Assembly (NCBI GenBank): GCA_001788495.1
Contig: MGCF01000114.1
Location: 1,074 to 65,073, forward strand
Direction of reading: 5' to 3'
DNA: 64,000 nt
From: Candidatus Rokubacteria bacterium RIFCSPLOWO2_02_FULL_73_56
GTDB taxonomy: Bacteria > Methylomirabilota > Methylomirabilia > Rokubacteriales > CSP1-6
Shown here: piece by piece, positions 418 to 23,000 of the stretch
Layout of the letters: each line of letters begins with the position of its first letter
How positions within the stretch are numbered: position 1 is the stretch's first letter
The notes under the pieces: model-generated
Database searches by the model: none
What the model was told of the DNA's origin: nothing
Seen by the model: the letters and a program-made list of their open reading frames with translations, nothing else
Position numbers and translations under genes: made by a program

Positions 418-1494
418 CTACCGCACCGCCGCCGCGGTCCGGCAGACGTAGATGCTGTTCTGCGGCCCCGGGGCGTCGAACACCTCGACCGTGCCGAAGC
501 CGGCCTCGGCGAGGAGCCGCCGCGCCGCCTGTTCGCCCCACGCGGTGCCGAGCCCCGCGCCGCCCTCGGCGAGGGAGACCGTCATGCAGTGGAGCACGCT
601 CATGCCGTACATGTACGGCGTGAACGGACTGCCGATGTTGTCCTCGAGGCGGCTCGACGCCTTGGGCTCGACCATGAGGTAGATCCCGTCCGGCGCGAGC
701 GCGGCCGCGATGCGGCGGAGCACCGCCGCGGGATCGCGCTGGTCGTGGATCGCGTCGAACGTCGTGACCAGGTCGAAGGCCGGCTCGGCGGGCAGCCGGG
801 TCACGTCGAGCGCCTCGAAGCGCGCGTTGGCGAGCCCCAGGCCGCGCGCCTCCTCGCGGCCGCGCGCGACCGCCTCCTCGCTCCAGTCGTAGCCGACGAA
901 GGTCGAGCGCGGGTACGCGCGCGCCATCACGTTGACCGCGTGGCCCGTGCCGCAGCCCACGTCCGCGACGCGGAGGCCCGCCGCGAGCCGCTCGGGAAGC
1001 CCCTGCGCCACGGGCAGGAAGCCCTTGACCAGGAGCCCGTCGTAGAGGAGCCGCCACGAGGCGTCCTGCGCCTCGGTGAAGTCCGGCCGGTACGCCGCGT
1101 ACGGGACGCCGCCACCCGCACGGAAGCAGTCGATGACCTGCGGCAGGCGCTTGGCGAGCATCGTGAGCGTCTGGCTCGCGGGCGCCAGGTTGCGGCTCGA
1201 CGTCCCCGTCAGGCACGTCGCGTGCTCCGGCGGCAGCGTGAAGCGTCGCGACGTCCGGTCGTACTCGACGACCCCGCCCGTCGCCATGGCCGCGAGCCAC
1301 TCGCGGACGTAGCGCTCGTCGAGCCCCGCGCGCGCGGCCAGCTCCGCGCTCGTCGCCGGGCCCTTGGCGGCCGCCTCGAAGAGGCCGGTCTTGAAGCCGA
1401 TCTGCACCATCAGCGTCAGGAGCCCGCTCGTGTAGAAGCCGAAGAGCTTGCGGGCGAACTCCTGGACGCGCTGCCGGTCGAGCGTGGGCTCCAT
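418..1494 (-). CDS. Class I SAM-dependent O-methyltransferase (family-2-like, with N-terminal winged-helix dimerisation region), 358 aa
   Basis: ORF 418..1689 trimmed to ATG at 1494-1492 (MEPTLDRQRVQEFARKLFGFYTSGLL...). A GGGGAGGG Shine-Dalgarno sits 4-11 nt upstream. The in-frame extension to 1689 is Arg/Pro-rich low complexity. SAM motif I is VADVGCGTGHAV, followed by FDLVTTFDAIHD (motif II/III-like). Stop is TAG at 420-418. Confidence 0.8.
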   Translation of the reverse strand: MEPTLDRQRVQEFARKLFGFYTSGLLTLMVQIGFKTGLFEAAAKGPATSAELAARAGLDERYVREWLAAMATGGVVEYDRTSRRFTLPPEHATCLTGTSSRNLAPASQTLTMLAKRLPQVIDCFRAGGGVPYAAYRPDFTEAQDASWRLLYDGLLVKGFLPVAQGLPERLAAGLRVADVGCGTGHAVNVMARAYPRSTFVGYDWSEEAVARGREEARGLGLANARFEALDVTRLPAEPAFDLVTTFDAIHDQRDPAAVLRRIAAALAPDGIYLMVEPKASSRLEDNIGSPFTPYMYGMSVLHCMTVSLAEGGAGLGTAWGEQAARRLLAEAGFGTVEVFDAPGPQNSIYVCRTAAAVR

Positions 1495-1669
1495 GGTCCC
1501 TCCCCGCGGCCCGGGGCCGGCCGCTGGCCGCACGATAGGGCGACGACCGCCCGCGATCAAGCGGCGGCGGCGCGCGCGAGGAGACCGGCGCAGACGCGCA
1601 CCGACGTCAGGATCGTGACCCTGGGGGACGGCGTGCTGGAGGGGGGAGCCGTCCGGCGCCGGCAAGGAA

Positions 1670-1690
1670 CGTGTCAGACGGTCTGACACG
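1670..1690. promoter_or_regulatory. Perfect 21-bp palindrome CGTGTCAGAC-G-GTCTGACACG, plus a third GTGTCAG half-site at 1695-1701; candidate enhancer/operator (UAS)
   Basis: Read directly: 10-bp inverted arms with no mismatch around a central G, in the divergent intergenic region. Its centre is 94 bp upstream of the sigma-54 -24 GG. Confidence 0.55.
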
Positions 1691-5000: not shown

Positions 5001-8000
5001 TGATGTTGTCCGCGCCGCCGAGGATCACGTCGGCGCCGCCGATGGCGGGCTCGGTGGTGACCACGTCCCCGTCCACCACCACGTCGCCGTTGTCGCCGAG
5101 CACGATGTTCGTCCCGAACGACGCGTCGATGACGTCGCCGCCGATGCCGCCCAGGATGACGTTCCGGCCGCCCAGGCTCACGATCACGTCGGCGGCGCCC
5201 GTCGTCCCGTCCTCGTCGAACGTCTCCACGCGGGTCACCTGGTGGTCGCCGTCGCGGTACACGATGCCGTTGTCGCCCAGCACCGTGTTGGTCCCGCCGC
5301 GCAGCGTGATCGTGTCGCTGCCGACGCCGCCCAGGATGAAGTTGGTGCTCCCGGCCAGGATCGTGTCGTCGCCGCCGAGGTCGGGCTCGGTCGTCTGGAT
5401 GTCGTTGGCCACCGGCTGGTTCAGGGTCACCTCGCCGTTGTCGCCCAGGAGGATGTTGCTGCTCCCGCTCGCGGTCTCGATCGAGTCCTGGCCCACGCCG
5501 CCCAGGATCACGTTCACGCCGGCCTGGCTCAGGATCGTGTCGTCGCTCGCCGCCAGCGGCCCGAGGTCGGTCGTGAACACCTTCGTGACGTCGCCGAGGG
5601 TCCCGAGCGAGATGCCGCCGTTGCGGTTCACCTGGCCGTTGTCGCCCAGGACCACCGCGGTGCCGCCGCCCAGCGTGATCGCGTCGTTCCCGAACCCGCC
5701 CAGGATGATGTTGTCGCTGCCGGCCAGGATCGTGTCGTCGCCGCCCAGCGTCAGCTCGGTCGTCCAGATGTCGTTGGCGAGCGGCTGGTTCAGGTTCACC
5801 TCGCCGTCGTCGCCCAGGATGATGTTCTGGCTCCCGCCGGTCGCCTCGATGCGGTCCGCGCCCACGCCGCCCAGGAGGATGTTGGTCCCGCCCTGGCTCA
5901 GGATCGTGTCGTCGCCACCCGTCGCGCTCGTCGTGTCGGTGGTGACCACGCGGGTCACCGTGGTGACGAGCTGCCCGAGGGCGTCCAGCGCGCCCGTGCG
6001 GCTCACGTGGCCGTTGTCGCCCAGGACCACCGCCGTGCCGGTCAGCAGCTCGACGTGGTCCTGGCCGAAGCCGCCCAGGATGACGTTGTTGCTGCCGGCG
6101 AAGATCTGGTCGGCACCGCCGAGGTCGAGGTCGGTCGTGAAGACGTCCTCGTCGCCGACCCGGTTCAGGTTCACCACGCCGTTGTCGCCGAGCACGATGT
6201 TGTCGCTGCCGCCCGTCGCCTCGATCGTGTCACCGGCCACGCCGCCCAGGATGATGTTCACCCCGCCCTGGCTGAGGATCGTGTCGGGCCCGCCCGTCGC
6301 GGCCGTGCCATCCGTGGTCCGGACCTGGGTCACGACCCCGGCGGTGCGCGTCACGGAGCCGTTGTCGCCGAGCACGGTGTTCGTGCCCGCGCCCAGCGTG
6401 ATCAGGTCGGATCCTGCGCCGCCCAGGATCGTGTTGGTGGCGCCGCCGGTGATGACGTCGTCGCCGCCGACCGCGAGGTCGGTGCTGAAGATGTCACCGC
6501 CGACGTTCACCTCGCCGTTGTCGCCCAGCACGACGTTGCTGCCCACCGGGGCGTCGAGGAAGTCGCCGGCGACGCCGCCCAGGATGATGTTCACCCCGCC
6601 CAGGCTCGTGATGTGGTCCACGCCGCCCGTGAGCGCGCTGCCGTCCGTCGTGAACACGCGGGTGACGACGCCGCCCGTGCGGAGGACGTGGCCGTTGTCG
6701 CCGAGGACGACGTTGGCGCCGCTGTTGAGCGTGATCGTGTCCTGGCCGAAGCCGCCCAGGATGATGTTGTCCGCAGGGCCGGTGACCGACACGCCCGTGG
6801 CCTCGATGACGTCGTCGCCGCCCAGGTCGAGGTCCGTGGTCTGCACGTCGCCGTCGACGATCACGTCGCCGTTGTCGCCGAGGACGATGTTGCTGCTGCC
6901 CACCAGCGCGTCGATCGTGTCGCCCGCCACGCCGCCCAGGATCACGTTCACGCCGCCCTGGCTCGTGATGTGGTCCACGCCGCCCGTGAGCGCCGTCGTG
7001 TCCGTCGTCGTCACCTGCGTGGTCTGCTCGCTGCCGTCCCGGCGCACCACGCCGTTGTCGCCGAGGACCACGTTGGTGCCCGAGCCGATCGTGATGTCGT
7101 CGGGCCCGAAGCCGCCCAGGATGATGTTGTTGCTGCCCGACTCGATCGTGTCGTGGTCGCCCAGCGCGCCGGGGCCGCTCACGATCGAGTAGATGTCGTT
7201 GCTCACCGGCTGGTTCAGGTTCACCACGCCGTTGTCGCCGAGGATGACGTTGGCGCTGCCGACCAGCGCCTCGATGACGTCCTGGCCGACGCCGCCGAGG
7301 ATCACGTTCACGCCGCCCTGGCTCGTGATCGTGTCGCCGCCGCCCGTCGTGGCCAGCGTGTCGGCCGTCGCGACCTGCGTCGGCGTCTCCGCGCCGTCGC
7401 GGCGGACCACGCCGTTGTCGCCGAGCACGGTGTTGGTGCCGCTGCCCAGCGTGATCTCGTCGGCGCCGAAGCCGCCCAGGATGATGTTGTTCGTCCCTGA
7501 GAAGATGAAGTCCCGGTCGCCCAGGTCGAGCTCCGTGCTCTCGATATCGTTGGCCACCGGCTGGTTCAGGTTCACCTCGCCGTTGTCGCCCAGGATGACG
7601 TTGCGGCTGCCGCCCGTGGCGTCGATCCCGTCCTCGCCCACGCCGCCCAGGATCACGTTGACGCCGGCCGTGACCGTGATCGTGTCGCCGCCGCCCGTGC
7701 CGGCCGTGACGTCGGTGCTCTTCACCTGGTACGGCGTCTCGCCGCCGTCGCGCCGCACCGTGCCGTTGTCGCCGAGCACCGTGTTGACACCGCCGAGCAG
7801 CCGGATCTCGTCGGCGCCGAAGCCACCGAGGATGATGTTGTTGCTGCCCGAGAAGATCTGGTCGTCGTCGCCCAGCGCACCCGGCCCGTCCACGATCGAG
7901 GCGATGTCGTTGGCGGCGGCCTGGTTGAGGTCCACCACGCCGTTGTCGCCCAGGATGATGTTGCTGCTGCCGCCCGTGGCGTGGATCTCGTCCCGGCCCA

Positions 8001-11000
8001 CGCCGCCCAGGATCACGTTGACGCCGGCCGCGCTGGTGATGACGTCGCGGGCGCCCGTCGTGTCGTCCACGTCGGTCGTGGCCACGGTCAGGACGGTCTC
8101 GTCCGGCGCCGGTCCGCGCAGGACCTGGCCGTTGTCGCCGAGGATGACCGCGTTGCCGAGCCCGGTCGTGATCGTGTCGGTGCCGAAGCCGCCGATGATG
8201 ATCGAGCGGCCGCTGTCGCCGCCCTCGATGATGTCGTCGCCGCCGATGCCCGGCGCCACGCTGGCGATGTCGTTGGCGGGCGCCTGGTTGACCGTCACGT
8301 CGCCGTTGTCGCCCAGGATGATGTCGCTGCCCGCGCTGGCCTCGATGACGTCGCCCATGGCGCCGCCGATGATGATGTCGTTCCCGACGCCGCTGGTGAT
8401 CCGGTCCACGCCGCCGGTGGCCGGGTCGATCGAGGTCACGCGCTGCACCACGCCGCCGATCCGCGCGACCAGGCCGCCGTCGCCCAGGATCACGTTGTCG
8501 CCCTGGCCGCCCAGCAGCGTGTCGTTGCCGGCGCCGCCGATGAGGATCGAGCGGTTGCCGAACCCGGCCGCGAGCGCGTCCTCGGAGCCGGTGAGCACGT
8601 CGGCGCCGCCGATGGCGGGCGCGATCGTGAAGACGTCGCCGTCGAGGTCCACCACACCGGAGTCGCCGAGCACCACGTCGCCGCCCAGGCTGGCGGTGAC
8701 GACGTCGCCCGCGGCGCCCGCGATGGCCACGTCGGCGCCGCTGCCGCCGTCGATGGTGTCGAGTCCGCCGCGGGCCGGCAGCAGGGACTCGACCCGGGCC
8801 GGGGCGCCGGCGTCGAAGATCACCCGGGCGTAGTCGCCGACCAGCACGTCGTCGCCCTCACCGCCGAGCAGCGTCTCGCGGATCGGGTCGCCGGCCACGT
8901 CGGCGTTGTCGCCGCCGATGAGGATGTCGTCGCCGAGGCCGCCCGCCAGCGTGTCCACGCCGTCCACGTCCGCCTCCACCGTGACCAGGAGGTACGGATG
9001 GCGCACCGTGCCGGCCGTCACGTCCTCCGGTCCGCCGTGGCCGCGGACGGCCGTGGCCAGCGCCTGGAGCTGCCCGAGCGGCAGGCCGAGGTCCACCGCG
9101 CCCGGGTCGGCGAAGAACAGCAGGCGGCCGCGGTCGCCGACGAGGACGTCGCCGGCGTCGCCGCCGGTGATCACGTCCCGGTCCTTGCCGCCGAACACGA
9201 CGAGCGGCAGCGTCGAGCCGGTGCCGAGGACCGTGTCCTCGTCGTCGGTCACGGCGCCGACCGCCGACGTCTCCGTGATCCGCTTCGTCATCCGGACCAC
9301 GACCAGCGCGCCCGCCGGCGGCGTGGCCGCCGCCGTGAACGTCACGGTGTCCGCGGCCGGGTCCACCACGACACCGTCCAGGTCGGCCAGGTCGACCCCG
9401 TTGACCGACACGCCCACGACCTCGGTCACGCCGGGCTGGAGGTCCTCGCCGACGTGCAGGACGGGCGCCGCATCGTCGAAGGTGAAGGCCTCGGCCACCG
9501 TCCGCACGATCTCCACCTCGACCGACGCGCCGAGGAGCGGGCTCACCAGCAGGCCGATCCGGTCCAGGCCGAAGTCGGCCGAGAACTGGTCCGCCGTGAG
9601 CGCCACGCCGTCGACGGCGACGCTCACGAGGTCGGCCGGCGTGTCCGGGCCGGCGGCGTTCAGGCCGGCCGCCACCGGCACCAGCACGCTGTACTGGCCC
9701 TGCGTGTTCAGCACGAACCGGCCGTCGTCCGCCGCCTGCAGCGACACGGTGACGACGTCGTTCCCCAGGCCCGTGTTGAGCGTGGTCACCGTCTCGACCG
9801 GCTGGCCGCCCTCGGTGGCCGCCGGGCGGAAGTGCGTGTCGTCCACGGTGATCACGTCGGCGCCCGAGCCCGTCCAGATCGTGATGCCGCGCGCGAAGTC
9901 GCCCGCGGCGTCGGCGCGGAAGGTGATGCCGGCGGGCGCCAGGCCGACGATGAAGATCTCGGCGTCGCTCGCGACGTTCGGATCGACGGCCGCCGCCGCC
10001 GCGAGGCTGTCCGTGATCAGCACGCTGCGGCCGGCCGCGCTCGCCTCGTTGCTGATCATCAGCTGGTGGCGGCCGGTGCCGGCGTCGATGTTCAGCGTGC
10101 CGAGGAACGTGCCGAGGTGGCCGGACAGGAAGGCCGGTGTCTCGCCCATGGCCACGTTGGCCGCCGACGACACGTAGATCCACTCGTCGCCGTCGCCGAG
10201 GTCGAGGTTCGTCACCGCCGACGTGCCCGTGACGTTGACGACGTCGTCGCTGCCGAGCCTCACGTCCAGCAGGTCCACGCCGTAGTAGTTGATCCCGTCC
10301 AGCCGCGTCGCGACCGCCACCGTGCCCAGGAGGGCCGAGACGTCCACGAACGCGATGGCGATGTCGCGGTGCTCGCCCCGGAAGCCCAGGTGGTACGTGG
10401 TGCCGTGCTGCTCGACCGCCACGTTGTCCGTGAACGGCAGCGCCGGGTTGGCGTTGTTCGGGTTGAGCACCGCGCTCAGCGCCTCGAGCACCGCCGCCGC
10501 CGAGGCGTTGAACGCGATCGGCGCCGTGGCGAAGTCCTGGGCGACACCCTCGGCGTTGGCGCGGACGAAGTGGAGCACGAAGCTGCCGCCGGTCGCGTCC
10601 ACCGTCAGCGTCTGCACGGTGTCGCGCTCCGTCGTCAGCGCGCCGTCGCGCAGCGTGGCCACGCGCACGTCGGTGGACGCGCCGAGGCCGGCCACCAGCC
10701 CGGTCGTCTCGCGGGTCTCGCCCCACTCGAGCGGCGCGTGGTCGACGCCGGCCTGGCCGCGGATGAACGTCACCCGGTGGGTCACGTCCACACCGGTGCG
10801 GATCGACGACACCTTGAGGTCGTCGAAGCCGTAGAGCGCGCGCAGCCGCTCGGCCACGGCCTCGTCGTCCATCCCGTAGTCGAGGGTGACCAGGGCGAAG
10901 CCGGCGCCGCGCTCCACGAAGTCCGTGGTGGTGTCGGGCAGGCCCGTCTCGGTGCCGTAGCCCGGCGTGCGGAGCCGGTAGGTGCCCGAGGCGGCCTGCA

Positions 11001-14000
11001 CGAAGACCGTCTGGACCTCGGCCACCGTCGGCATGTCGAGGCCGGTCAGCGTGCTGGCGGTCAGGTCGAGCGTGGTGTCGTCGACCGCGTCGCCCGAGTC
11101 GTCGACCACCAGCGTGTCCTCGCCGGCGCCCATGTCCACGGTGAGCAACCCGGTGATCTGGTCCACGTTCTGCTCGTCGTTCGCCACGGTGACCGTGTCG
11201 TCGCCGGCGCCCGTCTCGATGGTGGCGTGGCCCACGATCGTCTCGACGGCGATCGTGTCGTTGCCGGCGCCGCCCCTCACGGTCGTGGAGCCCGCGTGGG
11301 TCGTCTCGACCGTGAAGTGGTCGTTGCCGCGGCCCAACCCGACGCTCACGACCTCGAGGTTCGAGTACGTGATGCCGCCCGGCACGAGGCGGCCGGCCAC
11401 CACCGTGGTGCCGCCCATGCCGAGGCCGGTGATCCGGCTGTCCGTCAGCACGCCGACGTCGTCGGCCGGGCTGTTGGTGTTGTCGACGTACAGCGCGTCG
11501 ACCTGGTCGTCCTCGATCACGCGGAAGTTCAGGTTGAACGGCGCGACGAAGTACAGGTCCTCCGCCACCGGCTGCGTCCCGGTCGGCCAGCCGGTCCGGA
11601 GCGTGACCCGCGTACCGGAGACCAGCGGCGCGTAGGCGGAGTCGATGCCCTCCTCGAAGAAGCCGGTGACGTCCGCGACCGTGTCGCCCGCCTGCACCGG
11701 GTAGGTGACCGCCGGCGCGCCGCCCAGCGCGATGCTCCACGTCCCGGTGCCGGCGCTCAGGATCCGGAACGCCGCCTGGGTCCAGGTCGTGAGCCCGACG
11801 TCCGCCAGCTCGAGGGTGCCGCCCAGGGTGGCCCCGCCCTCGACCGTCTCGCCGGGCGCGGCCAGCACGCTGAAGGTGGCGTTGAACCTGGTGCCGTCCG
11901 TCTTCGTGAGGATCAGGCGGCTGTCGCCCAGGATGCCCACGCGGACCTCGACGTCGAGCGCCGGCGTCTGGGTCCGGATGGCGTCGGCCAGGCGCTCGGC
12001 GATGCTCGACAGGACGGCCTCGCCGGCGCCGATCGGCACCGAGTAGGTCGTGCTCGGGCCACCCGACGCCGTGCCGTCGAGGTCCACGGTCAGCCGCCAC
12101 GTCTCGCCCACCCTGGCGACGCCGTCGAGGGTGACCACCATCCGCGTCCAGTCGAGGCCGCCGAGGCCCGTCTGGACCGGGGTGCCGATGAACTCCGCGC
12201 TGCCGCCCGCCGCCACCTGGAAGGCCACGCTGAACGCCGTGGCCTTCGCCACCGACAGGATGTCGGCGGAGACGGACGCCACGTCGAGCGTCAGCACGCT
12301 CTCGAGGTGGTTCACGGTCAGGAACGTCGCGATGAACGCGAAGTCGTTCATGCGCGGGTCGAAGCCCGGCCGCTCGCCCGTGCGGGCGTTGACGTGCATG
12401 GCGCTCGCGTCCGTGAGGAAGGCGAGGCCGTCGGTGGCGGTCCCGGTGCCGGTCACCTCGCCCTGCGGCAGCGGCAGGTTCTTCTCGCCCGGCAGCAGCA
12501 GCGGGTTGCCGAGGAACCGCTCCTCGCCCACCCGGATGCCGCCGTCGATGACCAGCGGCCCGCGGATCCCGTTCACCCGGCCCTCGAGCGCCGGGAACAC
12601 GAGGGCGTCGCTGCCGTCCACGAAGTCGTCGTCGAGCGCGCGCACGATGACCGTCTGGGCCTGGTTCCAGTCGGTCGTGGTGAACACGAGCTGCGGGGTG
12701 ACGACGGCGCTGCCCAGGCTCTGCGGCAGGACGTTGAGCGTCGCCGTGAAGTCGCCGCCGTGCGCGCGCTCCAGGCTGAGGACGCGGCCGCTGACCGCGA
12801 CGTCCCACGCGCCGGTCGGCAGCTGCTCGCCGAGCTTGCGCGCGACCGTGGCCAGGCTGTCGCCGAACCCGGTCGTGTAGCTGACCGTCGTCACGCCGAC
12901 GCCCGGCACGGTCAGGGTCAGCGTCCAGCGCTCGCCCTGGGCCGTGTGGCCGCCCAGCTCGACGTCCACGGCGCTGAAGAGGCCGGCCACCGTGCCCGGC
13001 GTCCCGGTGACGGTCGCCGTGCCGCGACTGTCGGCCACCGTCGGCGTGATCGACAGGGTCACGGTGAAGTCGACGAGCGCGGTCACCGTGAAGGCCGTCG
13101 AGTCGCCCGCGACCAGGCTCGCCGAGAACGAGAAGTTCAACGGGAAGCCCACGTAGACGAAGCCGTTGACCTGGCTGCGCAGGTCCGCGGCGATCGTCGC
13201 CAGCGTGTCGCCGGCCACGACCGTGTGCGTGACAACCCGCGGCGAGCCGATGGCCGGGGTAAACGTCAGGCGCCACTGCTCGCCCACGGCCGGCAGGCCC
13301 TCGAGGTCGACCGTCTTCACGTTCGACGAGCCGGTCACGGCGGCGGTGCCGCCGAGCGCGGGCAGCGCGATCGAGAAGGCCGAGAAGAAGGCGTCGGGCG
13401 CCGTCACGACGAGGGCGGTCGGGTCGGCCGGGTCGAGGACCGCCGTGAACCGCCGCCCGCCGACCCCGTAGATCCCCGCGGCGGAGTTGATCGCGTTCCG
13501 GAGGCTCAGGGCGATCGTCGCCAGCGTGTCGCCCGGCTGCACCGTGTACGAGAACCCCGGCAGCGCGTTCGACGAGCCGTCGGCCTGCGGCGTGTTCAGC
13601 GTGACCTTCCAGACCTCGCCCGGCGTCGGCGTGCCCTCGAGGTTGACGTACACGCGGGTGGTGGCCGTCTTGACCTGGACCTCGTTGTTCTCGCCGAAGT
13701 TGGCGTTCGGGTCGAAGGCGAGGTCCGCGTTGTAGGTCCGCGTCGCCTGCGGCGCCACGTCCACGATCACGGTGGCGTCGGGCTGGCCCGTGAGGACCAC
13801 CGTGTAGCTGGCGTCCACCGGCTGGTAGGCCGGGAAGTCCGACATGGGCTGGTAGATCTCGAACCGGCTCGTCGAGTCCGGCGTGACCGCCCACGTCGTG
13901 CTGAGGGTGTAGATGCGCTCCTCGGCGTCGTAGGCGGTGATGGTGGCTTCCTGGCCCTTGCCCGTGCCCTCCACGATCTGGATCTTCTTCCCGGCCAGCG

Positions 14001-17000
14001 TGATGGCGTCCGGGTTCGTCTGGTGCAGCTGGAGCGACACGATGAGGTCGTAGGACTGGCCGGGCATCACCCCGCCCTGCCCGTCCGCGAAGTACGTGTT
14101 CGGACGGCCGAGGTAGCGGGTGAAGCTCGCGTAGTCCACGAGGGAGCCGACGCGCAGCTTGTACACGCCGGCGGTGTTGAACGTGTGCTGCAGCAGCGGG
14201 TCCAGCGTCGTGGCGCTGCCCGCGTCGAGGGCGTGCGAGCCGGCCGAGGTACTGCTCGCCAGCACCGAGCCGTTCGGCGCGATCAGCTCGAGGGTTAGCC
14301 GCGCCGTGAAGTCCAGCAGGTCCGTCACCGAGAAGAAGAAGAAGCCGAAGAAGAAGAACGGCACCGGCACCTGGACCGCGCCCTGGATGAGGTTCGCGCG
14401 GTCGATGTCGAACACGCCCTTCACCACGCCGCCGCCGCGCGTGGCGCTGATCCTGAACGGATCGTCGCCGGCCACGGTGACGCCGGCCGCCTTCGCCTTG
14501 TCGATGATGCGGACCTGGCCGGCCGCGAAGTCGCCCGTCTGCAGCTCGGCGCGGAACGGCGCCGCCGCGTCGGCGTTGATCGCGTTGGCCAGCCCCTGGG
14601 CGACCGTGCCGAGCTGGCGCACCGTCGCGTTGCCGAAGGGCGCCAGGAAGCTGTAGGTCCGGCCGTCGATCGTGATCGCCCACGTCTGGCCTTCCTCGTA
14701 CGGGCTGCTCAGCCGCACGACGCCGAGGAGGTAGAAGTCGTCGGCGCTCGCCGTCGAGGCGGTCGTGGTGAAGGCCACCGGCCGGAGCTGGGTCGCCGGC
14801 CCGATCGCGACGGGGGCACCCGTCGCCGACTCCACCACCAGCGCCCCGCCGTCGTTCGACAGCGTGTGCCCGGTCGCGATGAGCGCCGGGAGCGCGAGGA
14901 AGAGGTCCACGATCTGGCTCGTGGTCTGGCCCGCGGACGGCAGCACCGTGTAGTCGACGCCCGCCACCCGCAGCGTCCACGTGTCGCCCTCCTGGGCCAG
15001 CGCCGGGCCGGCGGGGTTGAGGGCCACGCTCTGCGTCCACGCGAGCGGCACCGTGCCGCTGACCGTCGCGGCGGCCGCCGCCGGGTCGCGCGCGATGGCC
15101 ACGTCGAGGGCGAAGGCGGCGCCGCCGGCGACCTTCGAGACGTAGACCGTCGCGCCGGCCGCGAAGGCCGTGTAGCCCGCGAGGCCGTTGGCCTGGCCCG
15201 CGAAGGCGGTGGCCACGGCGTCGGCGACCGCGGCCGGGGTGGCGACCGTGAAGCCCGGCGTCAGCGCGGAGCCGGCCACGCTGAGCGTCCACATGTCGCC
15301 GGCGTTCACGGGGCCGGTCAGGTCGACGCGCAGCGTGGTGGCCGTGCCGACCGACGCGCTGCCGCTCGGCGTGATGGACCGCGCGACCGTGAACGTGCCG
15401 CCGGCGGCGCGGGTCACCGTGAGCGTGTCGCCCGTCCGTAGGATAACGAAGGTGGCGCCGGCCGCGAGGTCGCCCTGGAGGTCCGCCACCACGGCGCCGA
15501 TGGTCGGCGTCGGGCTCGACGGGATCGTGAACGTGCCGTTGACGGGCGTGCCGGACGGCGTCGGCGTCAGCGTGACGTTCCAGACGTCGTCCGCGGTCGG
15601 CGTGCCGGAGAAAGCCAGGGAGGCCGCCGGCTGCTCCGCGCCGACCGTCTGGCTGCCCAGGCCGGCGCCGTCCACCGTCACGCTCAGCGCGACGCCGAAG
15701 TCGTCCGTGGACGCCGTCCGGGTCACGATGATCTGGGCGCCGCGCGCCTCGGCGTCGAAGTCGGCGGCGGCGTCGATGTCGGCGGCCAGGTCGGCCGCCA
15801 CCTCGTCCGGCGTGTCGCCCGGCGCGACCGGGTACGTCGCCACCACGAGCTCGCCGCCGTCCGTCAGCCCCAGCCGCCACGTGTCACCGGCGTCGATCAG
15901 GCTCGGCAGCGTGAACGTCTCCACGCGCACGACGGTCGGCGCGGGCGTCAGCGTCGGCGTCACCGTGTCGGGCTCGGCCGGGCTGGTGATGGACGGCACG
16001 GCCGCCGTGAAGCCGCCGGAGAGCCGGCTGAGCGTCAGAGTGGCGCCGCTCGCGGTCGCGAAGAAGTCCGTGAAGGCGTTGATGGCGTCCCGGAAGCTCC
16101 CGGCGATGGCGTCGATCGTGGGCGAGCCGCTGATCGGCACCTGCGCCGTGTGCAGGGTGGACGCGCCGTCCATGAGCGCGATGGCCCACGTGTCGCCGTC
16201 CACCACGGTGCCGGCCAGCAGGTAGGTCAGCGTGGTGGCCTCGGTCTGGGCCGCCGGCTGCCGGTCGATCGTCAGCGACGCCGTGAACGTGTGCGCGGTC
16301 ACGGCGATGATCGTGATCGCGTTGCCGGAGGCGACCGCGGTGAACGCGCTCGAGGCGTCCACCTGGCCCGCCAGGTCGGTCGCCACGGTGCTCGCGCTGT
16401 CCTCGGTGCTGTCGTACGGATCGCCGGCCACCGTGAGGCGGAACACGTCGGCCGCGTCGACTGCCCCGATCGTGATCACGCGGGCCACCGTCAGGGCGTC
16501 CGTGGCGATCGACGCCACCGGGTCCACCGACAGGGTGACGTCGAAGTCGTCGCCGGAAAGGCGCGTGACGACGACCGTGGCGCCCTCGGCGACGGCGCGG
16601 AAGCCGCTGACCGCGTCGAGCAGGCCGGCCAGCGTCGAGGCCACCGCACTCGGGGTCGCCCCGGAAGCGGTCCTGGTCGCGAGCACGGTGGTGCTCGGAG
16701 CCGGCTCGCCGAGCGTGACGCTCCAGACGTCCGCCGCCTGGAAGCTCGTCGCGATCGTGATCGTGTGGCTCACGACCGACGGCGCGGTCTCCGCCGTGAA
16801 GGCGCCCGACACCGCCACCGAGACGCTCACCGTGAAGCCGGCCGCCTTGCTCACGGTCACCACGGCGCCGCTCGGCGTCACGGTGTAGCCGCCACCGTTC
16901 AGCGCTCCCGCCAGCAGGCCTGCGAGCGTCGCGCCCGAGGTGCTCGGCGCCGTCTGCGTGGTCGTGCGCGTGGGCGGCGTCGCGTCGTCGAGGTCGGTGA

Positions 17001-20000
17001 GCGTCACCGTCCAGTCTTCGCCCGGCCGCACCGCGCCCGGCAGCGTGATCTGGGCGGTCGTGAAGGCGATGGCCGGGACGTCGCCCTGCGACAGCGGCGT
17101 GCCGCCGATGGTCGCCGTGCCCTGCGGGGCGGCGCCGGCAACCGTGAAGGACAGCGTGAACCCGGCCGCGCGCGTGATCGTCAGCGTGTCGCCGAGGCTC
17201 GAGCCCGTGCCGGCGCCGAGCGCGGTGTTCAGCGAGCCGGCCAGCGCGGCGGCGATGCTGGTCAGGGTGTCGCCCACCAGCACCGTCCGGGCGGCCGTGG
17301 TGGCGCCGCCGTCCAGCGTGACCGACCACACCTCGCCGGCGGCCGGCGCGCCCGCCAGCCCCACGTTGGCCGTGCCGAAGGTGATCGGGGTCGTGCCGTC
17401 CGCCGCGAGCGCCTGCGTCGACCGGGTCACCGTGGCGGTCTTCCGGGCCTCCTGGGCGACGCCGTTGACGGTCAGGCCGTGCAGGTTGAAGCCGTTCGGG
17501 TCGGTGATCGTCAACGCGCCGTTGGCCGCGACGGTCACCGTGTACCGCGCCGGCAGCAGGTTCCTGAGACCCGTGCTGACGTCGTCCAGCGAATTGTCGC
17601 CCGGCTGCACCGTGTAGGCGTAGTCCCGGTACCGGAGGCCGAGCGTCCACGTGTCGCCGGCGGCGACACGGCCGTTCGGCAGCAGCGTCACGCTGGTGAA
17701 GAACGGCCCGTTCGGGTCCACCACCGTGCCGGCCGTGGCCGCCGGCGACTGGGCGAACGCCGACGGGTTCAGCATGGCCGCGGTGATCTCGAACGAGTAG
17801 AGGTCGAAGCTGCCGTCGCCCGAGCCCTGGATCCGCGCGAACGGCGTCGAGAAGGTGATGTTCGAGCCGTTGCCGACCTCGGGGTCGAAGAACGTGAAGA
17901 AGTTGTCGCGGTCGTCGATGTCCTGCGCCGCCCCGCCCGCCTGGAGGCTCTCGTTCTCCAGCACCGCCGACGGCGCGAACACGAAGTCGGCCGTCTCGTG
18001 CTGCTCGATCGACACCTGCAGCGTGTAGTCCACGCCGACGGGCAGGCCGGAGGTGAACAGCCAGCTCGTGACCTCGAGGTAGTACCGGCCCGCCTGGGTG
18101 AACGTGAAGGCCAGGAAGTCGTCGAGCCACGTCGTGCTGCCGCCCGCGCCGGCCGTGAGCGGGTCGGAGAAGCCCCGGCCCTGCGCGATGCGGTCGCCGT
18201 TGGCGTTGTAGAGCCTGAGCAGGCTGAGCCACAGGATGCGGTCGCCGAACTCGAACCCGTGGTCGATGTCGAAGCTCGCCTGCACGCCGTTCGACCCGGC
18301 GTCGGCCAGCATCTCCGCCGTGATCTCGAACGAGTAGAAGTCCGGGTCGCCGTTGCCGGTGCCGAGCACGGTCAGGTGCGGCTCGAGCGCGGGGTCGCCG
18401 GTCACGCTGGCGATGTCCGGGTGCGCGTTGCGGCTCCAGTCGCCCAGCCCGAGGTCCTGCGCGGTGAAGGTCGAGTTGTGGAACTGGACCTCGTTGAGCA
18501 CGGCCGTCCCGAAGTCGCCGATGAACTGGTTCGACGCCAGGCTGCCGCCCACCTGCGTGACGTAGCCGTCGCCCAGGAGCACGAACTGGGTGGGCTCGAC
18601 GACAGTCGTCCCGCCGTGCGTCTCGCGGACGAGGACGGTCGGCGCGTCGTCGTCGGTGAGCCGGACGTCCACGGGGCCGGGCTGCGTGACCTCGCCGTTG
18701 GCCCCCGCCGTGTAGACGTAGGTCGCCACGTCGCCGCTCCGGGCGTCCGCGAGCCCCAGCGTCCAGGCGTCGCCGGCCCCGATCACGCCGCTGCCGGCCA
18801 GCGTGATCTGGACCTCGGTGTAGAACGCGGCGCTCGTGGGCGCGAGGGCGGTGCCCGAGCCGCCGGTGAACGACGCCGTGAACGCGCTGCCGTCGTCGGC
18901 CGTCACGTGCAGGACGTTGCCGCTCAGCGTGGCCTCGAACGGCTGGCCGGACGCGTTGACCAGGCCTGCCAGCGTGGCGGCGACGGCGGCGGGAGCGGCG
19001 AGGAACCCGCCGACCGTGCTGTAGATCGACCCGTTGAGGTTCAGGGAGAACAGGGTGCCGCCGAGCGACAGCGAGTCGCCGACGACGGCGTCCACCGACG
19101 TGTAGCGCGCCGTGCCGACATTGGTGAACGTCGCCGTCCCGAAGGTCGTCGCCAGCGAGTCCACGCCGAACGGCGCGTCCGTGTTGGTGAGGGTCAGGAC
19201 GTTGCCCGCCACGCCGGCCGTGTAGGCGGCCGTGAGGTCGCCGGCGACCTGGGCGCCGAGGCCGCGCGCCGCGTCGGCGAGCGTGATCCCGAGGAACTCG
19301 TCGGTCTCCGACGTGATGGCGTGGGCCACGCGCGAGAAGTGGATCCCTTCCCTCTTCGCGTCGTCGACGGCCTGGATCTCGACGACCTTCAGCGTGTTCC
19401 AGTTCCCCGGCGTGAAGGTCAGGACCTGGCTGGCCGCCCACGTGCTGGTGCCGAACTCGCGCACCAGGACCTCGCCGTCGGCCGAGACGGCGACGGTGAC
19501 CGTGCCCACCGGCGCCTTGCTCAGGACCACCGCGTAGGCGTCCGTGGCCGGCAGCGAGCCCGACGGGTTCTCGGAGACCAGGGTGTCGTCGTCGGCGCGC
19601 TGGCTCGTCTCGTCGAACGGCACCACCACGACCTCGGCGGCGTCGTCGTCGATCACCTGCACGGGCAGGCTCGCCAGCGCCAGGCCGTCGTACGGGTCGC
19701 CGTCGTCGGCGTTGGCGCCCTCCACCACCGTGTGCAGGATCGTGATGCCCCGGTGGCCCTCGGCCAGCCCGTCGTCGATGGCCGTCACCGTCACGTGCTG
19801 CGGGATGAACCAGTTGTTCTTGTCGAACAGCAGGGTCACGCCCGCCTCGTTGCCGTTGAGCGCGATGCCGGCGCCGCCCGCCTTCTTCTCGCGCTCACGG
19901 CCCGCGGACGGGGCGGCCGTGATGCGGACGTTCTCCAGCGGGGCCCGCGTGAGCACGATGTCGTAGCTGGCCACCACCAGCTCGTCCGGGGCGGCCGGGT

Positions 20001-23000
20001 TCTCGAACACGCGCAGCGGCCCGCCGCTGAGGCTGAGCAGGACGCCGGCCGTGTCGTTGTCGGCCACCTTGACCGAGAGGTCCGGCACGAACACCGCGTC
20101 GTAGTCCACGTCGGGGCTCGACGCGGTGTGCTCGACGAGGGCGCTGTGGCCGTCGAGGCTCTTGCTCACGACCACCACCGGCTCGCCGTCGTTGCCGCCG
20201 CCCACGCTGAAGGTGTCGCTGCCGCGGCCGCCCTGGATCTCGAGGATCGCGTTCGCGGGCGTGCTCACGATGAAGAACCGGTCGTTGCCCTCGAGCGCGT
20301 CCACCACGATCTTCTCGATGCCGGCGTAGGTGATGGCCAGGCCGGCGCCGAACACGCCCTGGTCGGTGATCACGAAGTCGTCGCCGAACTCCGTGCCGAC
20401 CACGACCAGGGTGTCCAGGCCCTCGCCGCCCTCGATGCGGACCGGCGCGTTGACCGTGTACGAGATGAAGTCCGCGCCCTGGCCGCCGTTGATGGTGGTG
20501 AACGGCGCCAGCGGATCGTCCGGGTTGACGCGCACGAAGGCGCGCACGCGGAAGGTGTCGTCGTCCTCCTCGCCGAAGAGGGCGATCGACGCCGTGTTGT
20601 GGTAGACGGTGAAGCTGTCCTTGCCGAAGCCGCCGAAGAAGATGCCCGGCTTGCTCACGCCGTTCGAGAGGTAGCCCAGCGTCACCCGCGTCGTCTCGAA
20701 GAAGTCGAGGTCGGCGAGGCCGTTGTGCGGGTTCGAGCCGTCGCGCGGCGAGGCGAAGACCTGGCCGATCTGGAAGGTGTCGTCCCCGGCGTCGCCGAAG
20801 ATCGTCGTCGGGGCCAGCGTGTCGTCCAGGATGAAGACGTCGGCGCCCTCGCGGCCGTAGATCGTGAGCGTGCTGTTGATGTCGCCGTCGTAGTTGACGC
20901 GCTCGAAGAAGCCGCCCGCCACGGGCTCGAGGTTCGCGTCCACCTGGAAGGCGGCGACCACGCCGATCCGCGGCGTGACCGTGGGCAGGTTGGCGCGGAG
21001 CAGGAAGAAGTCCGGCCCGTCGGTGCCGTAGACGATGAGCCGGTTGACGCCCAGGTCGTCCGCCGGCGACTCGTCGATGACGTTGATGAGCGCCTTGCCG
21101 GTCGCCGCCAGCCCGATCTCGTAGAGGTCGCTGCCCGCGCGCCCGTGCAGGGTCAGCGGGTGCAGCTCGTCGCGCAGGCCGCTCTGGAAGGTCTGCTGGC
21201 CGTTCTCGTCGTAGTTCACCCGGATCGTGTCGTCGTCCTGGACGCCGTCGCCCGGCCCGCTCTCGGGGTCGAACAGGCCGCCGCCGACCACCGTGGTGCC
21301 GCCGAGCGAGCGGATGTTGAGGACGTCGTCGCCGCCGCCCAGGTCGAGCTCCAGCACGCTGTCCAGCGGCGTGGAGTGTACGAAGAAGGCGTCCACGCCC
21401 TGGCTCAGCCAGACGTCGAGGTTCTCGAAGCCCGTGGAGGCGATGCCGGCGGTCATCCCGGCCGGCGCCGTCATGCCGAGGCCGGTCAGCGAGGCCGCGT
21501 CCAGACGGCCGGTGTTGGGGCCCGCGTCGCCGCTGTCGTAGGCGCGCAGCGTGTCGGCGCCGTCGGCGGCGGCGAGCGTCAGCGGCGCGCTGATGCCGTT
21601 CAGCGTGCTCGTGCCCGTGGGATCGATCAGGTCCGTGCGGCTGCCCACGCGCACGGTGTCGGCGCCCGGGCCCGTGAAGATCGTCGTCGGGCCCGCGATC
21701 GTCATCACGTTGATCGTGTCGGCGCCCATCTGGCTGTCCACGCTGGTCGGGCCCGTGATCGTGGACTGGATGGTCAGCGTGTTGTTGCCCTGGCCCAGGT
21801 GGACGTCGATCTGTTCGAAGGCGAGGTAGCTCATCGAGCCGCCGGCGCCGAAGATGCCGGTGACGAGCGAGCCGGACAGCGTGCCGGTGTTGGTGCCGGT
21901 GTCCTGCGTGTCGTCCACGGTGACGGTCTCGGCGCCGGTCGTCGAGTCCAGGGCGAGCAGCGCGCCGATGCCGTTGGCGTGGCCGAGGACGTTCAGGAAC
22001 TTCAGGCCGTCGGCGTCCGCCTGCACCGCGGGCAGCTCGGTCGTGAGCCACGCGCCCGCCTGGCTGCCCACCGCGAAGCGGTCGGTGCCGCCCTGGCCCA
22101 GGATCGCCGTCGTGCCGCTGATGGCGCGGACGGCGATGCGGTCGTCGCCCCCGCCCGCGTTGATGGTCGTGCCGCCCGTGTGCGTCGTCACCACCGTGAT
22201 CGTGTCGGCGCCGGCGCCCAGGCCGAGGGTCAGGCTCTCGAGGCCCGCGTAGAGGACGTCGCCCGGCATGCCGGTCGGCACCGCGAAGAAGGTCACGACC
22301 ACGTCCGCGTCGGCGTCCGGCCGGACCGACGGCGTCAGCCGGAGGCGGTCGCCGGTCAGCGTGTACTGGCCGGCCGGCAGCTCCAGGCCGTCGATCGTCA
22401 CCTTGACCACCGTGAACGGCGTCACCGGCAGGTCGAACTCCGCGTAATCGGCGTCGCCGAACACGAAGCTCTCGGCGCTCGGCTCGGCGCCGGCCTCCGC
22501 GCCCACGGGCAGGTAGGTCACGACCACGTCGGCGGTCTCCGAGGGCCGGACGGTCGGCCGCAGCGTGATCTGCGTGCCGCTCACCTGGAACTCGCCGGCC
22601 GCCAGCTCGAAGCCGCCGACCGTCACGCTCGGCGTGCCCTGGGGCTCGGCGACCAGGATGAAGGTCGCCGCGTAGCCGGCGCCGAAGACGAAGGCCGCGG
22701 CGTCCGGCGCCTCGCCCTGCACGCGGAGCCGCTGCAGCGTGAGGGCGTGCTCCACCGGGTCGGCCGTCGAGTGGAAGACCGGCTCGCCGCCGCGGTGCAG
22801 GCGCGCCTCGTTCCCCAGGTAGACCTTGGGGTCGCCGGCCGCGTACAGCGCCGGCACCCACTCGCCGGAGCCGGGCGAGGTCTCGACGAGGACGATCTCG
22901 CCGCGCGCGTGGTTCTTCACCTCGAGCCGGTAGACGAAGGTCACGCGCGTGTCCACGAGCGGCTTCGTCGTCGGCGTCACGCTGACGACAGGACGGTTCG

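What the first reader, a model, noticed from the sequence alone, without database searches (positions are those of the whole stretch)
12646..18496. PPC-like beta-sandwich domains followed by ~16 repeats containing a LysM-like YTVxxGDTLxxIA core
The string FSYTVQPGDTLATIALSLRNAIN is strikingly close to the LysM helix-1 consensus (YTVKKGDTLWSIA), but it sits inside a ~100-aa repeat that also has an upstream G[DE]xW[LV]TL strand. It may be a LysM-derived glycan-binding module or a convergent motif. Together with the PPC-like, DUF642-like and Calx-beta units it suggests a carbohydrate-binding or surface-binding region.
Basis: partly seen in the sequence, partly recalled or inferred. Interest (0 to 1): 0.55.

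Follow-up and report, generated by a model that had tools for sequence, protein, structure and literature searches.

The report
Phage-sheath-like repeats nested inside beta-sandwich domains
The repeats are real but are not LysM sugar-binding domains: they are an unnamed small domain related to the outer knob of phage tail-sheath proteins, inserted as ordered arrays into loops of other domains in a giant (>20,000 aa) secreted-type bacterial protein.

Summary
The finding lies inside one 20,620-codon ORF on the minus strand (window 2047-63909). It is an RTX-type giant protein, probably from a Candidatus Rokubacteria/Methylomirabilota genome.

The quoted string and the ~100-aa repeat are real: 17 copies in the protein, 14 of them inside the stated coordinates. 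Only 3 copies carry the strict LysM-like core and 6 a loose one.

LysM similarity is local and below threshold. Pfam scores are at most 18.6 bits per repeat against a cutoff of 20.9, covering profile positions 1-15 of 43. hhalign probability is 7-48% over 24-25 columns. The AlphaFold model (pLDDT 86) has four strands, one long helix and four strands, not beta-alpha-alpha-beta.

The whole domain instead matches the outer domain (residues ~82-182) of contractile-phage tail-sheath proteins and a podophage nozzle protein, by fold and by sequence profile (PDB E down to 8e-6; PHROG 'tail sheath' E 2e-19 for a family member).

It belongs to an unannotated family: 1,618 cluster representatives from many phyla, all 'hypothetical'.

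The arrays are nested. Eleven copies sit inside a loop of the second PPC-like domain, a layout conserved in at least 31 other proteins. Three copies sit inside another beta-sandwich unit.

Function is inferred: a structural or surface-display module, not a LysM-type glycan binder.

The parts
2047..63909 (-). Giant ORF of 20,620 codons. The reading frame stays open upstream to the window edge, so the protein is longer.
   Evidence: Pfam recognises only RTX repeats in it.
17935..18417 (-). PPC-like beta-sandwich domain A, intact (aa 15165-15325). It is well conserved, with invariant Asp, His and Thr positions.
17701..17877 (-). N-terminal strands of PPC-like domain B (aa 15345-15403), lying before the array.
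   Evidence: It matches positions 13-39 of domain A (iE 3e-4). The spliced alignment scores z = 12.2. The same junction is present in fragment P0153.
14440..17700 (-). Nested array of 11 repeat units (aa 15404-16490, about 99 aa each) inserted in a loop of PPC-like domain B.
   Evidence: The bracket is conserved in other proteins. Unit order is conserved with P0048.
13990..14439 (-). Remainder of PPC-like domain B (aa 16491-16640), including a poly-Phe loop FFFFGFFFF (aa 16518-16526).
13855..13986 (-). Small conserved unit KKIQIVEGTGKGQEATITAY... (aa 16642-16685) that follows the cassette in homologues as well.
   Evidence: It aligns with P0056 and P0023. The only Pfam hit is a weak SH3_KIN17_C match, E 0.034.
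13666..13860 (-). N-part of a second host beta-sandwich unit (aa 16684-16748). It is 'Calx-like' by motif only.
   Evidence: The spliced alignment crosses the junction with two intact neighbouring units, z 7.7 and 6.5. Pfam does not call it Calx-beta.
12715..13665 (-). Three repeat units (aa 16749-17065). These are the copies with the strict LysM-like core and include the quoted string (window 13486-13554).
   Evidence: The structure model is of the first unit.
12595..12714 (-). C-part of the second host unit (aa 17066-17105: ...LVFTTTDWNQAQTVIVRALDDD...).
11530..12153 (-). Two further repeat units (aa 17253-17460), outside the finding's coordinates.
18790..19098 (-). One upstream repeat unit (aa 14938-15040), outside the finding's coordinates.
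2050..9909 (-). C-terminal region (aa 18001-20620) holding the RTX nonapeptide repeat block.
   Evidence: Pfam HemolysinCabind, 172.6 bits in 11 stretches.

Best explanation
The repeat is a ~100-aa alpha+beta module: four strands, one long helix, four strands. It belongs to a large unannotated family and is related to the outward-protruding domain of contractile-phage tail-sheath proteins and to a domain of podophage nozzle proteins. It is not a LysM domain.

The YTVxxGDTLxxIA string is one strand, a GDT helix N-cap and the first turns of the single helix. It resembles only the first third of LysM.

In this giant RTX-type protein the module is used as an insert. Eleven ordered copies loop out of the second PPC-like jelly-roll domain and return to it. 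Three copies loop out of a neighbouring beta-sandwich unit.

The layout [PPC-like A][PPC-like B split by about 8-12 repeats] is a conserved cassette in big multi-repeat proteins of many phyla.

Inferred, not shown: the protein is exported by a type I system. Once outside the cell each repeat folds on its own, and the two halves of the host domain pair up and pin the ends of the array together. This would make a closed, protruding loop of beads. The loop would serve as surface display or low-specificity contact, or as bulk and protection for the fibre. It would not act as a LysM-type peptidoglycan or chitin binder.
For: Real repeat and real family. The profile search of 1.84 billion representatives gives 1,618 proteins at E<=1e-3 and 148 at E<=1e-30, with up to 31 copies per protein. 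Named members are only 'hypothetical' or generic, from Planctomycetota, Verrucomicrobiota, Proteobacteria, Gemmatimonadota, Actinomycetota, Thermodesulfobacteriota and Methylomirabilota. No Pfam or NCBIfam model covers the domain.

Fold: AlphaFold2 gives pLDDT 86.4 and pTM 0.81, with E-E-E-E-H(16 aa)-E-E-E-E.

Phage link by structure: the best PDB matches are the sheaths of A-1(L), Milano and 7-7-1 (TMq 0.52-0.58, E from 6e-4). Many BFVD virion proteins match at TMq 0.54-0.68.

Phage link by sequence: the window-repeat profile reaches nozzle gp23 at E 5.5e-5 over profile positions 16-93. The family-wide profile reaches Sf14 sheath at 8e-6 (profile 4-90, residues 82-182), gp76 at 3e-5, and 7-7-1, Phi92, PhiTE and Milano sheaths at 4.5e-4 to 3.5e-3. 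Family member P0008 hits PHROG 165 'tail sheath' at E 2e-19 on profile positions 93-177.

[quoted passage not shown] It is itself an insertion into a beta-sandwich domain and protrudes outward (PMC3004832).

Nesting: z 12.2; z 7.7 and 6.5. Conservation of the cassette: 31 proteins have an N-fragment running into repeats, 24 of them with the intact domain A just upstream. Twelve brackets are closed, with 6-11 detected repeats over 824-1,421 aa. Ordered array.

Secreted-type context: 11 RTX stretches near the C-terminus.

Against LysM.
Against: The window's own repeats reach phage proteins only modestly on their own (E 5.5e-5 to 0.3; no PHROG sheath hit). The strong links go through the family profile or other members.

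Foldseek TM-scores of 0.5-0.68 indicate a similar but not identical fold.

The spliced host-domain model is of low to moderate confidence (pLDDT 59.5). No model of the whole cassette could be made, so loop closure is inferred from sequence colinearity only.

No unsplit B-type domain was found to serve as an empty-site control.

No type I secretion genes can be seen, because the gene fills the window.

Nothing here tests binding, so a glycan-binding role by a non-LysM mechanism is not excluded.
Confidence: 0.6

Rival explanations
1. The repeat is a diverged LysM-derived module that has gained extra strands and still binds peptidoglycan or chitin-type glycans.
For: The family consensus contains YTVxxGDTLxx[VI]Axx L. 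Pfam LysM accumulates 30-49 bits summed over many copies in the window protein and in family members. The LysM proteins Ecp6 and 4uz2 appear as weak PDB hits. hhalign probability reaches 47.6% with the family profile.
Against: No single copy passes the Pfam cutoff, and alignment never goes beyond LysM position 15-20 of 43. The second helix, the conserved Asn spacing and the GQxLxIP strand are absent. The predicted fold has one long helix and eight strands. No LysM structure is in the top 50 fold matches. The G, D and T of the motif are each present in only about half of 955 family copies. The full-length similarity goes to phage sheath and nozzle domains instead.
Confidence: 0.07
2. The repeats are specific protein- or cell-surface-binding modules, by analogy with T4 gp18 domain I, which contacts the baseplate and the retracted tail fibres. 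The array would then be a multivalent adhesin head and not just a scaffold.
For: The homologous phage domain is surface-exposed and makes protein contacts (PMC3004832). Similar folds occur in phage tail fibre, baseplate and nozzle proteins. The order of units in the array is conserved between distant relatives, which suggests that the units are not interchangeable.
Against: Family-wide conserved positions are core-type only, with no conserved polar or aromatic surface patch. Copies within one array are only 18-37% identical. No ligand can be inferred.
Confidence: 0.25
3. The apparent nesting is an artefact. On this reading the short N-terminal PPC-like fragments are degenerate remnants or independent small motifs, and the repeats are simply in-line spacers between separate domains.
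For: The N-fragment match is short (about 27-40 residues; iE 3e-4 in the window). The spliced-domain model is only of moderate confidence. No whole-cassette structure exists.
Against: The two halves are colinear and together cover the whole of domain A (z 12.2). The same N-fragment, repeats, C-remainder order recurs in 12 closed and 19 open cases from different phyla, with fragment boundaries meeting at profile positions ~40-45. An independent second case of nesting exists in a different host unit. In the model, strands from both halves are predicted as beta strands at pLDDT 70-90.
Confidence: 0.1

Closest known systems
Outer (protruding) domain of contractile-phage tail-sheath proteins. Examples: T4 gp18 domain I type; PHROG 165; PDB 9c39/9c3b Sf14, 9hz7 7-7-1, 8fop/8fqc Milano, 8kee A-1(L), 9cb9 PhiTE. 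Also the corresponding domain of podophage nozzle gp23 (8i4m).
   Same: About 90-100 aa, a beta-barrel-like sheet plus a single helix. Sequence-profile matches are near full length (E 8e-6 to 3.5e-3; 2e-19 for a family member against PHROG 165), and fold matches reach TMq 0.5-0.68. It is surface-exposed and occurs as an insertion into a beta-sandwich host domain.
   Different: Here there is no sheath core (no domains III/IV equivalents). The module is amplified into ordered tandem arrays of 3-11 copies inside a bacterial giant RTX-type protein. The strand count in the model is 8, against the 6 described for T4 domain I. T4 gp18 itself was not among the hits, so equivalence to its domain I is inferred from residue position and the published description.
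LysM domain (Pfam PF01476)
   Same: A strand followed by a G-D-T-L helix N-cap and an IAxx amphipathic helix start. This gives a local match to LysM positions 1-15/20.
   Different: There is no second helix, no conserved Asn at LysM spacing and no C-terminal GQxLxIP strand. The domain is twice as long, has eight strands, and scores below the Pfam cutoff per copy. Genuine LysM controls score 44-73 bits over the full length.
PPC / bacterial pre-peptidase C-terminal domain and the clostridial collagenase collagen-binding domain (PF04151; PDB 1nqj, 1nqd, 4hpk)
   Same: The two host domains share the N-terminal T..G..GD..D.Y.F motif. PPC is the only recurrent Pfam hit in orthologous copies. The model is an all-beta sandwich whose best PDB matches include 1nqj and subtilase C-terminal jelly rolls.
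   Different: All scores are below curated thresholds. The domain is about 160 aa, against about 70 profile positions in Pfam PPC. One copy is split by a ~1,090-aa insertion. Collagen binding is not implied.
Giant RTX repeat adhesins secreted by type I systems, such as Marinomonas MpIBP, Pseudomonas LapA and Salmonella SiiE (from general knowledge, not tested here)
   Same: A very large protein with a C-terminal RTX block, long arrays of ~100-aa repeats, and no other recognisable enzymatic domains.
   Different: In those adhesins the extender repeats are in-line all-beta Ig-like domains. Here the repeats are alpha+beta modules looped out of host domains. The organism is an uncultured Rokubacteria-type bacterium, and secretion was not shown.

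Membership tests
LysM (PF01476) | Match to the 43-position profile above the gathering score (20.9 bits) over most of its length | tested here: not met
   Best single repeat scores 18.6 bits and always covers profile positions 1-15. Family members cover 1-14 to 1-20. Ten controls score 44-73 bits over 1-42/43.
LysM (PF01476) | beta-alpha-alpha-beta fold | tested here: not met
   The AlphaFold2 model (pLDDT 86.4) is E-E-E-E-H-E-E-E-E. No LysM structure is in the top 50 Foldseek PDB hits.
LysM (PF01476) | Second helix with conserved Asn, and C-terminal G[QT]xLxIP strand | tested here: not met
   hhalign aligns only LysM columns 3-27 of 49, with probability 7-47.6%. In the family consensus the Asn is 9 residues after the I of IA, within the same helix.
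LysM (PF01476) | Binding of GlcNAc-containing glycans | not testable with these tools
   This needs a binding assay.
Phage tail-sheath outer domain (PHROG 165 region ~93-177; T4 gp18 domain I type) | Beta-barrel-like sheet plus one alpha-helix, about 90-100 aa | tested here: met
   Model; Foldseek matches to sheath proteins and virion proteins; published description in PMC3004832.
Phage tail-sheath outer domain (PHROG 165 region ~93-177; T4 gp18 domain I type) | Significant near-full-length sequence-profile similarity to that region of sheath proteins | tested here: met
   Family profile: E 8e-6 to 3.5e-3, profile positions 4-90 against residues 82-182. P0008 against PHROG 165: E 2e-19. For the window repeats alone the result is weaker: nozzle 5.5e-5, sheaths 0.007-0.3.
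Phage tail-sheath outer domain (PHROG 165 region ~93-177; T4 gp18 domain I type) | Embedded in a sheath protein with the conserved sheath core domains | tested here: not met
   No sheath core is present. The surroundings are PPC-like units, other beta units and RTX repeats. The relation is at the level of the domain only.
PPC (PF04151) / collagenase CBD-like | Pfam match above the gathering score (25.9 bits) | tested here: not met
   13.7-14.1 bits in the window copy. Ten of 24 orthologous copies match at E<=1, best 6.4e-4.
PPC (PF04151) / collagenase CBD-like | Beta-sandwich or jelly-roll fold resembling ColG CBD or protease C-terminal domains | tested here: inconclusive
   The model has pLDDT 59.5 and pTM 0.60. 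Best PDB hits are 3afg, 1nqj, 5fax and 1wmd at E 3e-3 to 6e-2 with low TM. The profile reaches only collagenase CBDs in the PDB, at E 0.07-0.2.
RTX / type I secretion substrate | Block of GGxGxDxUx nonapeptide repeats near the C-terminus | tested here: met
   HemolysinCabind scores 172.6 bits in 11 stretches in aa 18001-20620.
RTX / type I secretion substrate | Cognate ABC transporter, membrane fusion protein and outer membrane factor genes, and demonstrated secretion | not testable with these tools
   The gene fills the window. Only a methyltransferase lies downstream.
   No hit at E<=1 in aa 14001-18000, at E<=0.01 in aa 10001-14000, or at E<=10 for the isolated units.
Flagellin hook IN motif / FliD-type domain (my own lead from memory) | Pfam PF07196 match, or a clear fold match to FliD | tested here: not met
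   No Pfam hit. There is only a weak Foldseek hit to FliD 9m6h: E 0.029, TMq 0.46, rmsd 12.

The most novel reading that the evidence does not exclude
A previously undescribed supra-domain cassette of about 1,500 aa is shared by giant surface proteins of at least eight bacterial phyla. In it a jelly-roll (PPC-like) domain is split by an ordered array of about 10 modules homologous to the outer knob of phage tail sheaths. The two halves of the host domain would act as a clasp that closes the array into a protruding loop after C-to-N type I export. This would also document an exchange of a virion surface module between phages and bacterial giant proteins.
Probability: 0.35. Interest if true: 0.6.

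Novelty: new variant of a known kind. Interest (0 to 1): 0.45.

Why it matters
The result removes a tempting mis-annotation. Pfam LysM accumulates above-threshold summed scores on these proteins (30-49 bits) without any real LysM domain, so automatic pipelines may label them peptidoglycan-binding.

It also defines an unannotated but widespread domain family: about 1,600 cluster representatives and up to 31 copies per protein. It ties that family to a phage virion surface domain.

Finally, it reveals a conserved nested architecture, a repeat array inside a split beta-sandwich. That is an unusual way to build a giant extracellular protein, and it gives a concrete, testable structural prediction of loop closure. 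The finding does not open a long-standing question, and the biological role remains inferred.

Tried and rejected
**Searches that found nothing**
- Word-seeded homologue searches found almost nothing for the three-repeat block (1 hit) and nothing for the repeat alignment. Only the exhaustive profile search revealed the family.
- The genome-collection scan with the three-repeat block found no relative, and the alignment was too divergent for pattern design.
- The exact-sequence look-up of the downstream methyltransferase was not on record. The organism was instead inferred from 89% identity to a Rokubacteria MAG.
- A regex harvest of LysM domains from the fetched loci gave none.
- Literature searches found no prior description of this repeat or of giant Rokubacteria genes.

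**Libraries not available**

**Ideas tested and dropped**
- I misread two sequences as unsplit B-type PPC-like domains. Alignment showed they are C-side junctions preceded by a repeat tail, so no empty-site control exists.
- The idea that the repeat is related to the protein's N-terminal repeat type was rejected (hhalign probability 1%).
- The flagellin-IN/FliD lead was not supported.
- The Calx-beta and DUF642 labels were not supported by Pfam.

**Correction**
- My notebook at first counted 12 nested units. The correct number is 11.

Full report
**Context**

The window is almost entirely one ORF on the minus strand, 2047-63909. It has 20,620 codons and a GC content of about 72%. The frame stays open upstream of the listed GTG to the window edge, and that stretch still reads as one of the protein's N-terminal repeats. 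The true protein is therefore longer.

Across the whole protein, Pfam recognises only RTX nonapeptide repeats: 172.6 bits in 11 stretches in the last 2,620 residues, plus a few near aa 12,000.

The gene downstream is a methyltransferase, 89% identical to one in a Candidatus Rokubacteria MAG. Other Rokubacteria/Methylomirabilota MAGs follow at 72-80%. The source is therefore most likely a member of that group.

The finding (12646-18496) corresponds to aa 15138-17088.

**Observation**

The quoted string is at aa 16786-16808. An iterated self-profile finds 16 repeat copies with domain E-values of 4e-10 to 2e-26. A seventeenth copy is evident in the alignment. The copies are distributed as follows:
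- 11 lie in one array (aa 15404-16490).
- 3 lie in a second block (aa 16749-17065).
- 2 lie further on (aa 17253-17460).
- 1 lies upstream (aa 14938-15040).

Fourteen of these are inside the stated coordinates.

The copies are 18-37% identical, and no DNA-level tandem repeat is present.

The motifs are far above chance and confined to this region:

| Motif | Copies | Shuffle mean |
|---|---|---|
| G[DE]xW strand | 12 | 0.14 |
| Loose GD[TS] core | 6 | 0.38 |
| Strict LysM-like core | 3 | 0.00 |

The strict core occurs only in the three-unit block.

**Is it LysM?**

The evidence says no:
- Pfam LysM reaches 30.4 bits on the 4,000-aa segment only by summing weak pieces. Single repeats score 14.6-18.6 bits against a cutoff of 20.9, and always on profile positions 1-15 of 43.
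- The same partial pattern (positions 1-14 to 1-20) is seen in other family members.
- Against a profile of those ten, hhalign gives 7% probability for the window repeats and 47.6% for a 955-copy family alignment. It aligns 24-25 columns, LysM columns 3-27, which means beta1 plus helix 1 only.
- AlphaFold2 on the unit that carries the quoted string, using the 17 units as the alignment, gives pLDDT 86.4 and pTM 0.81. The order is E3-11, E18-26, E32-34, E38-41, H48-63, E74-78, E81-89, E94-100, E106-111. That is one long helix and eight strands, not beta-alpha-alpha-beta.
- No LysM structure appears among the top 50 Foldseek matches in the PDB.

The shared element is a strand, a GDT helix N-cap and an amphipathic helix start.

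**What it is**

An exhaustive profile search of 1.84 billion representative proteins finds 1,618 proteins at E<=1e-3, 552 at <=1e-10 and 148 at <=1e-30, with up to 31 copies per protein.

The named members are 'hypothetical', 'beta strand repeat-containing', 'calcium-binding' or 'FG-GAP-like'. They come from Gemmatimonas, Gaiellaceae, Thermodesulfobacteriota, Planctomycetota, Zavarzinia, Methylomirabilota, Methylophilaceae and Prosthecobacter. Neither Pfam nor NCBIfam covers the domain. Co-occurring domains are RTX repeats and, in one protein, RHS repeats with a C39 peptidase.

The family consensus from 955 copies is G...G[ED]xWx[VLI]x[LVI]...YTVxxGDTLxx[VI]AxxLAxxIN...[YF]xA...G...F. The conserved positions are core-type residues, and G, D and T of the motif are each present in only about half of the copies.

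**The phage link**

The best structural matches are:
- The tail-sheath proteins of cyanophage A-1(L) (E 6e-4, TMq 0.57, 22% identity), Agrobacterium phages Milano and 7-7-1, and more weakly FliD.
- Many phage virion proteins in BFVD at TMq 0.54-0.68: structural, tail fibre, baseplate, tail tubular B and sheath proteins.

The sequence evidence agrees:
- The window-repeat profile reaches the nozzle protein gp23 of cyanophage P-SCSP1u at E 5.5e-5 over profile positions 16-93.
- A profile of 56 diverse family copies reaches Sf14 sheath at 8e-6 (profile 4-90, residues 82-182) and gp76 at 3e-5. It reaches the nozzle at 1e-4, 7-7-1 at 4.5e-4, Phi92 gp130 at 1.2e-3, PhiTE at 2.2e-3 and Milano at 3.5e-3, always at sheath residues ~82-182. 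LysM proteins match only profile positions 27-52.
- Family member P0008 hits PHROG 165 'tail sheath' at E 2e-19 on profile positions 93-177.

[quoted passage not shown] It is an insertion into the beta-sandwich domain II, protrudes outward without inter-subunit contacts, and touches the baseplate and the retracted fibres (PMC3004832). Equating the matched region with T4 domain I is my inference from position and description. T4 gp18 itself was not among the hits.

**Architecture**

The first PPC-like domain (aa 15165-15325) is intact. Its positions 13-39 match aa 15356-15382 (iE 3e-4), and its positions 68-119 match aa 16541-16590 (iE 4e-3). Splicing aa 15345-15403 to aa 16491-16640 gives an end-to-end alignment with domain A (score 104, z 12.2 against shuffles). 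The 11-unit array therefore lies inside a loop of the second PPC-like domain.

An orthologous fragment, P0153, shows the same N-side junction.

An AlphaFold2 model of the spliced domain is of moderate quality only (pLDDT 59.5, pTM 0.60). It is all-beta and uses strands from both halves. Its best PDB matches are subtilase C-terminal jelly rolls and the ColG collagen-binding domain.

A profile of 24 intact copies reaches only collagenase collagen-binding domains in the PDB (E 0.07-0.2). PPC is the only Pfam family recurring among those copies, in 10 of 24 with best E 6e-4. 'PPC-like' is therefore a fair label for a remote similarity.

**The layout is conserved**

Among the top ~150 family proteins:
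- 31 have an N-terminal PPC-like fragment running straight into repeats.
- 24 of those have the intact domain just upstream.
- 12 close the bracket within the available sequence, with 6-11 detected repeats over 824-1,421 aa. Most span 930-1,110 aa; the window's array spans 1,087 aa.
- About 20 more show only the C-side, being cut by contig ends.

The first two units map to array positions 1 and 2 in several relatives at 40-49% identity. With P0048 almost the whole array is colinear. The array is therefore old and ordered, not a recent expansion.

A second, independent case of nesting exists in the window. The three-unit block lies between aa 16684-16748 and aa 17066-17105, which when spliced align across the junction with two intact neighbouring units (z 7.7 and 6.5; intact against intact scores 79). 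Pfam does not recognise those host units as Calx-beta.

**Mechanism (inferred)**

The protein has the hallmarks of a type I secretion substrate. From general knowledge, such substrates are exported unfolded, C-terminus first, and fold outside the cell with calcium.

If that holds here, the C-part of the split host domain would emerge first, then the repeats, and last the N-terminal strands. Those strands would complete the sandwich and pin both ends of the array together. The result would be a closed, bead-like loop projecting from the fibre axis.

The conserved residues are core-type only. I therefore favour a structural, surface-display or low-specificity contact role. A specific binding role in variable loops is the main rival. 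None of this was tested here.

**Novelty**

Giant RTX proteins and the sheath outer domain are both known. What is new here:
- The assignment of this unannotated family to the sheath/nozzle domain class.
- The demonstration that LysM annotation of these proteins is spurious.
- The conserved split-domain cassette with a nested repeat array.

Literature searches found no description of it. I rate it a new variant of a known kind, of moderate interest.

Noticed in passing
window 63910-64000 (minus strand, upstream of the listed GTG start): The reading frame has no stop up to the window edge, and the translated stretch (…IRFDAVRGGVEFDGTHIRF…) continues the N-terminal repeat pattern. The giant protein is therefore longer than 20,620 aa and its true start lies outside the window.
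   Followed up: partly
window 54874-63909 (aa 1-3012): A different ~100-aa repeat occurs in 20 copies (consensus …G.RFTA.R.GA.F..L.V.YV.G.TAGNE.A.YD…L.V.I..G.TTA.QVVAA…PFTA). Pfam finds no match, and it is unrelated to the finding's repeat (hhalign probability 1%).
   Followed up: partly
window 14332-14358 (aa 16518-16526): A poly-phenylalanine loop, VPVPFFFFGFFFFSV, lies in the C-part of the split PPC-like domain, close to the insertion site. Tandem Repeats Finder reported it as (AGA)9. It has low pLDDT in the model, and a homologue (P0056) has an aromatic-rich loop at the same place. It may be a hydrophobic contact or membrane-touching loop; this is unexplained.
   Followed up: no
window 2713-2847 and 2446-2529 (aa 20355-20399 and 20461-20488): Two His/Trp/Asp-rich tracts (…HHRWHDGDWWDGDWWGWKDHGRHRHQAWHDDYWSHHGSWHHHG… and …HHEHHHGWWHHHEHHDHDDHDDHD…) lie between the RTX block and the C-terminus. 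They could bind metal.
   Followed up: no
window 418-1689 (minus strand): The downstream gene encodes an Rv2258c-like winged-helix plus SAM-methyltransferase protein, 89% identical to one in Candidatus Rokubacteria GWA2_73_35 (MGBU01000098.1). This is the basis for the taxonomic assignment of the window.
   Followed up: yes
protein P0069 against aa 12974-15594 (window 17128-24990): A 3,065-aa protein fragment in public data is 99.2% identical over 2,637 residues, so the same gene has been assembled elsewhere as a fragment. P0016 (Methylomirabilota, 'calcium-binding protein, partial') and P0048 are colinear, orthologue-like proteins at 37-48% identity.
   Followed up: partly
protein P0084 (family member, not in the window): The same repeat family also occurs in a protein with RHS repeats, a C39 peptidase domain and DUF6973. 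The module is therefore not restricted to RTX-type giants.
   Followed up: no
window 7981-14298 (+), 8858-15880 (-) and 15884-19441 (-), in other frames: Long ORFs of 1,185-2,340 aa overlap the giant gene in other frames. They are the expected by-product of 72% GC content and not separate genes.
   Followed up: no
window 17935-18417 (aa 15165-15325) and orthologous copies (alignment A3): The intact PPC-like domain is much better conserved than the repeats. Ten positions are invariant across 24 proteins from several phyla (T16, D26, D50, D52, W63, G93, Y131, L133, H140, F145), including a FDIDHGF motif. This suggests a metal site or another functional site worth examining.
   Followed up: no
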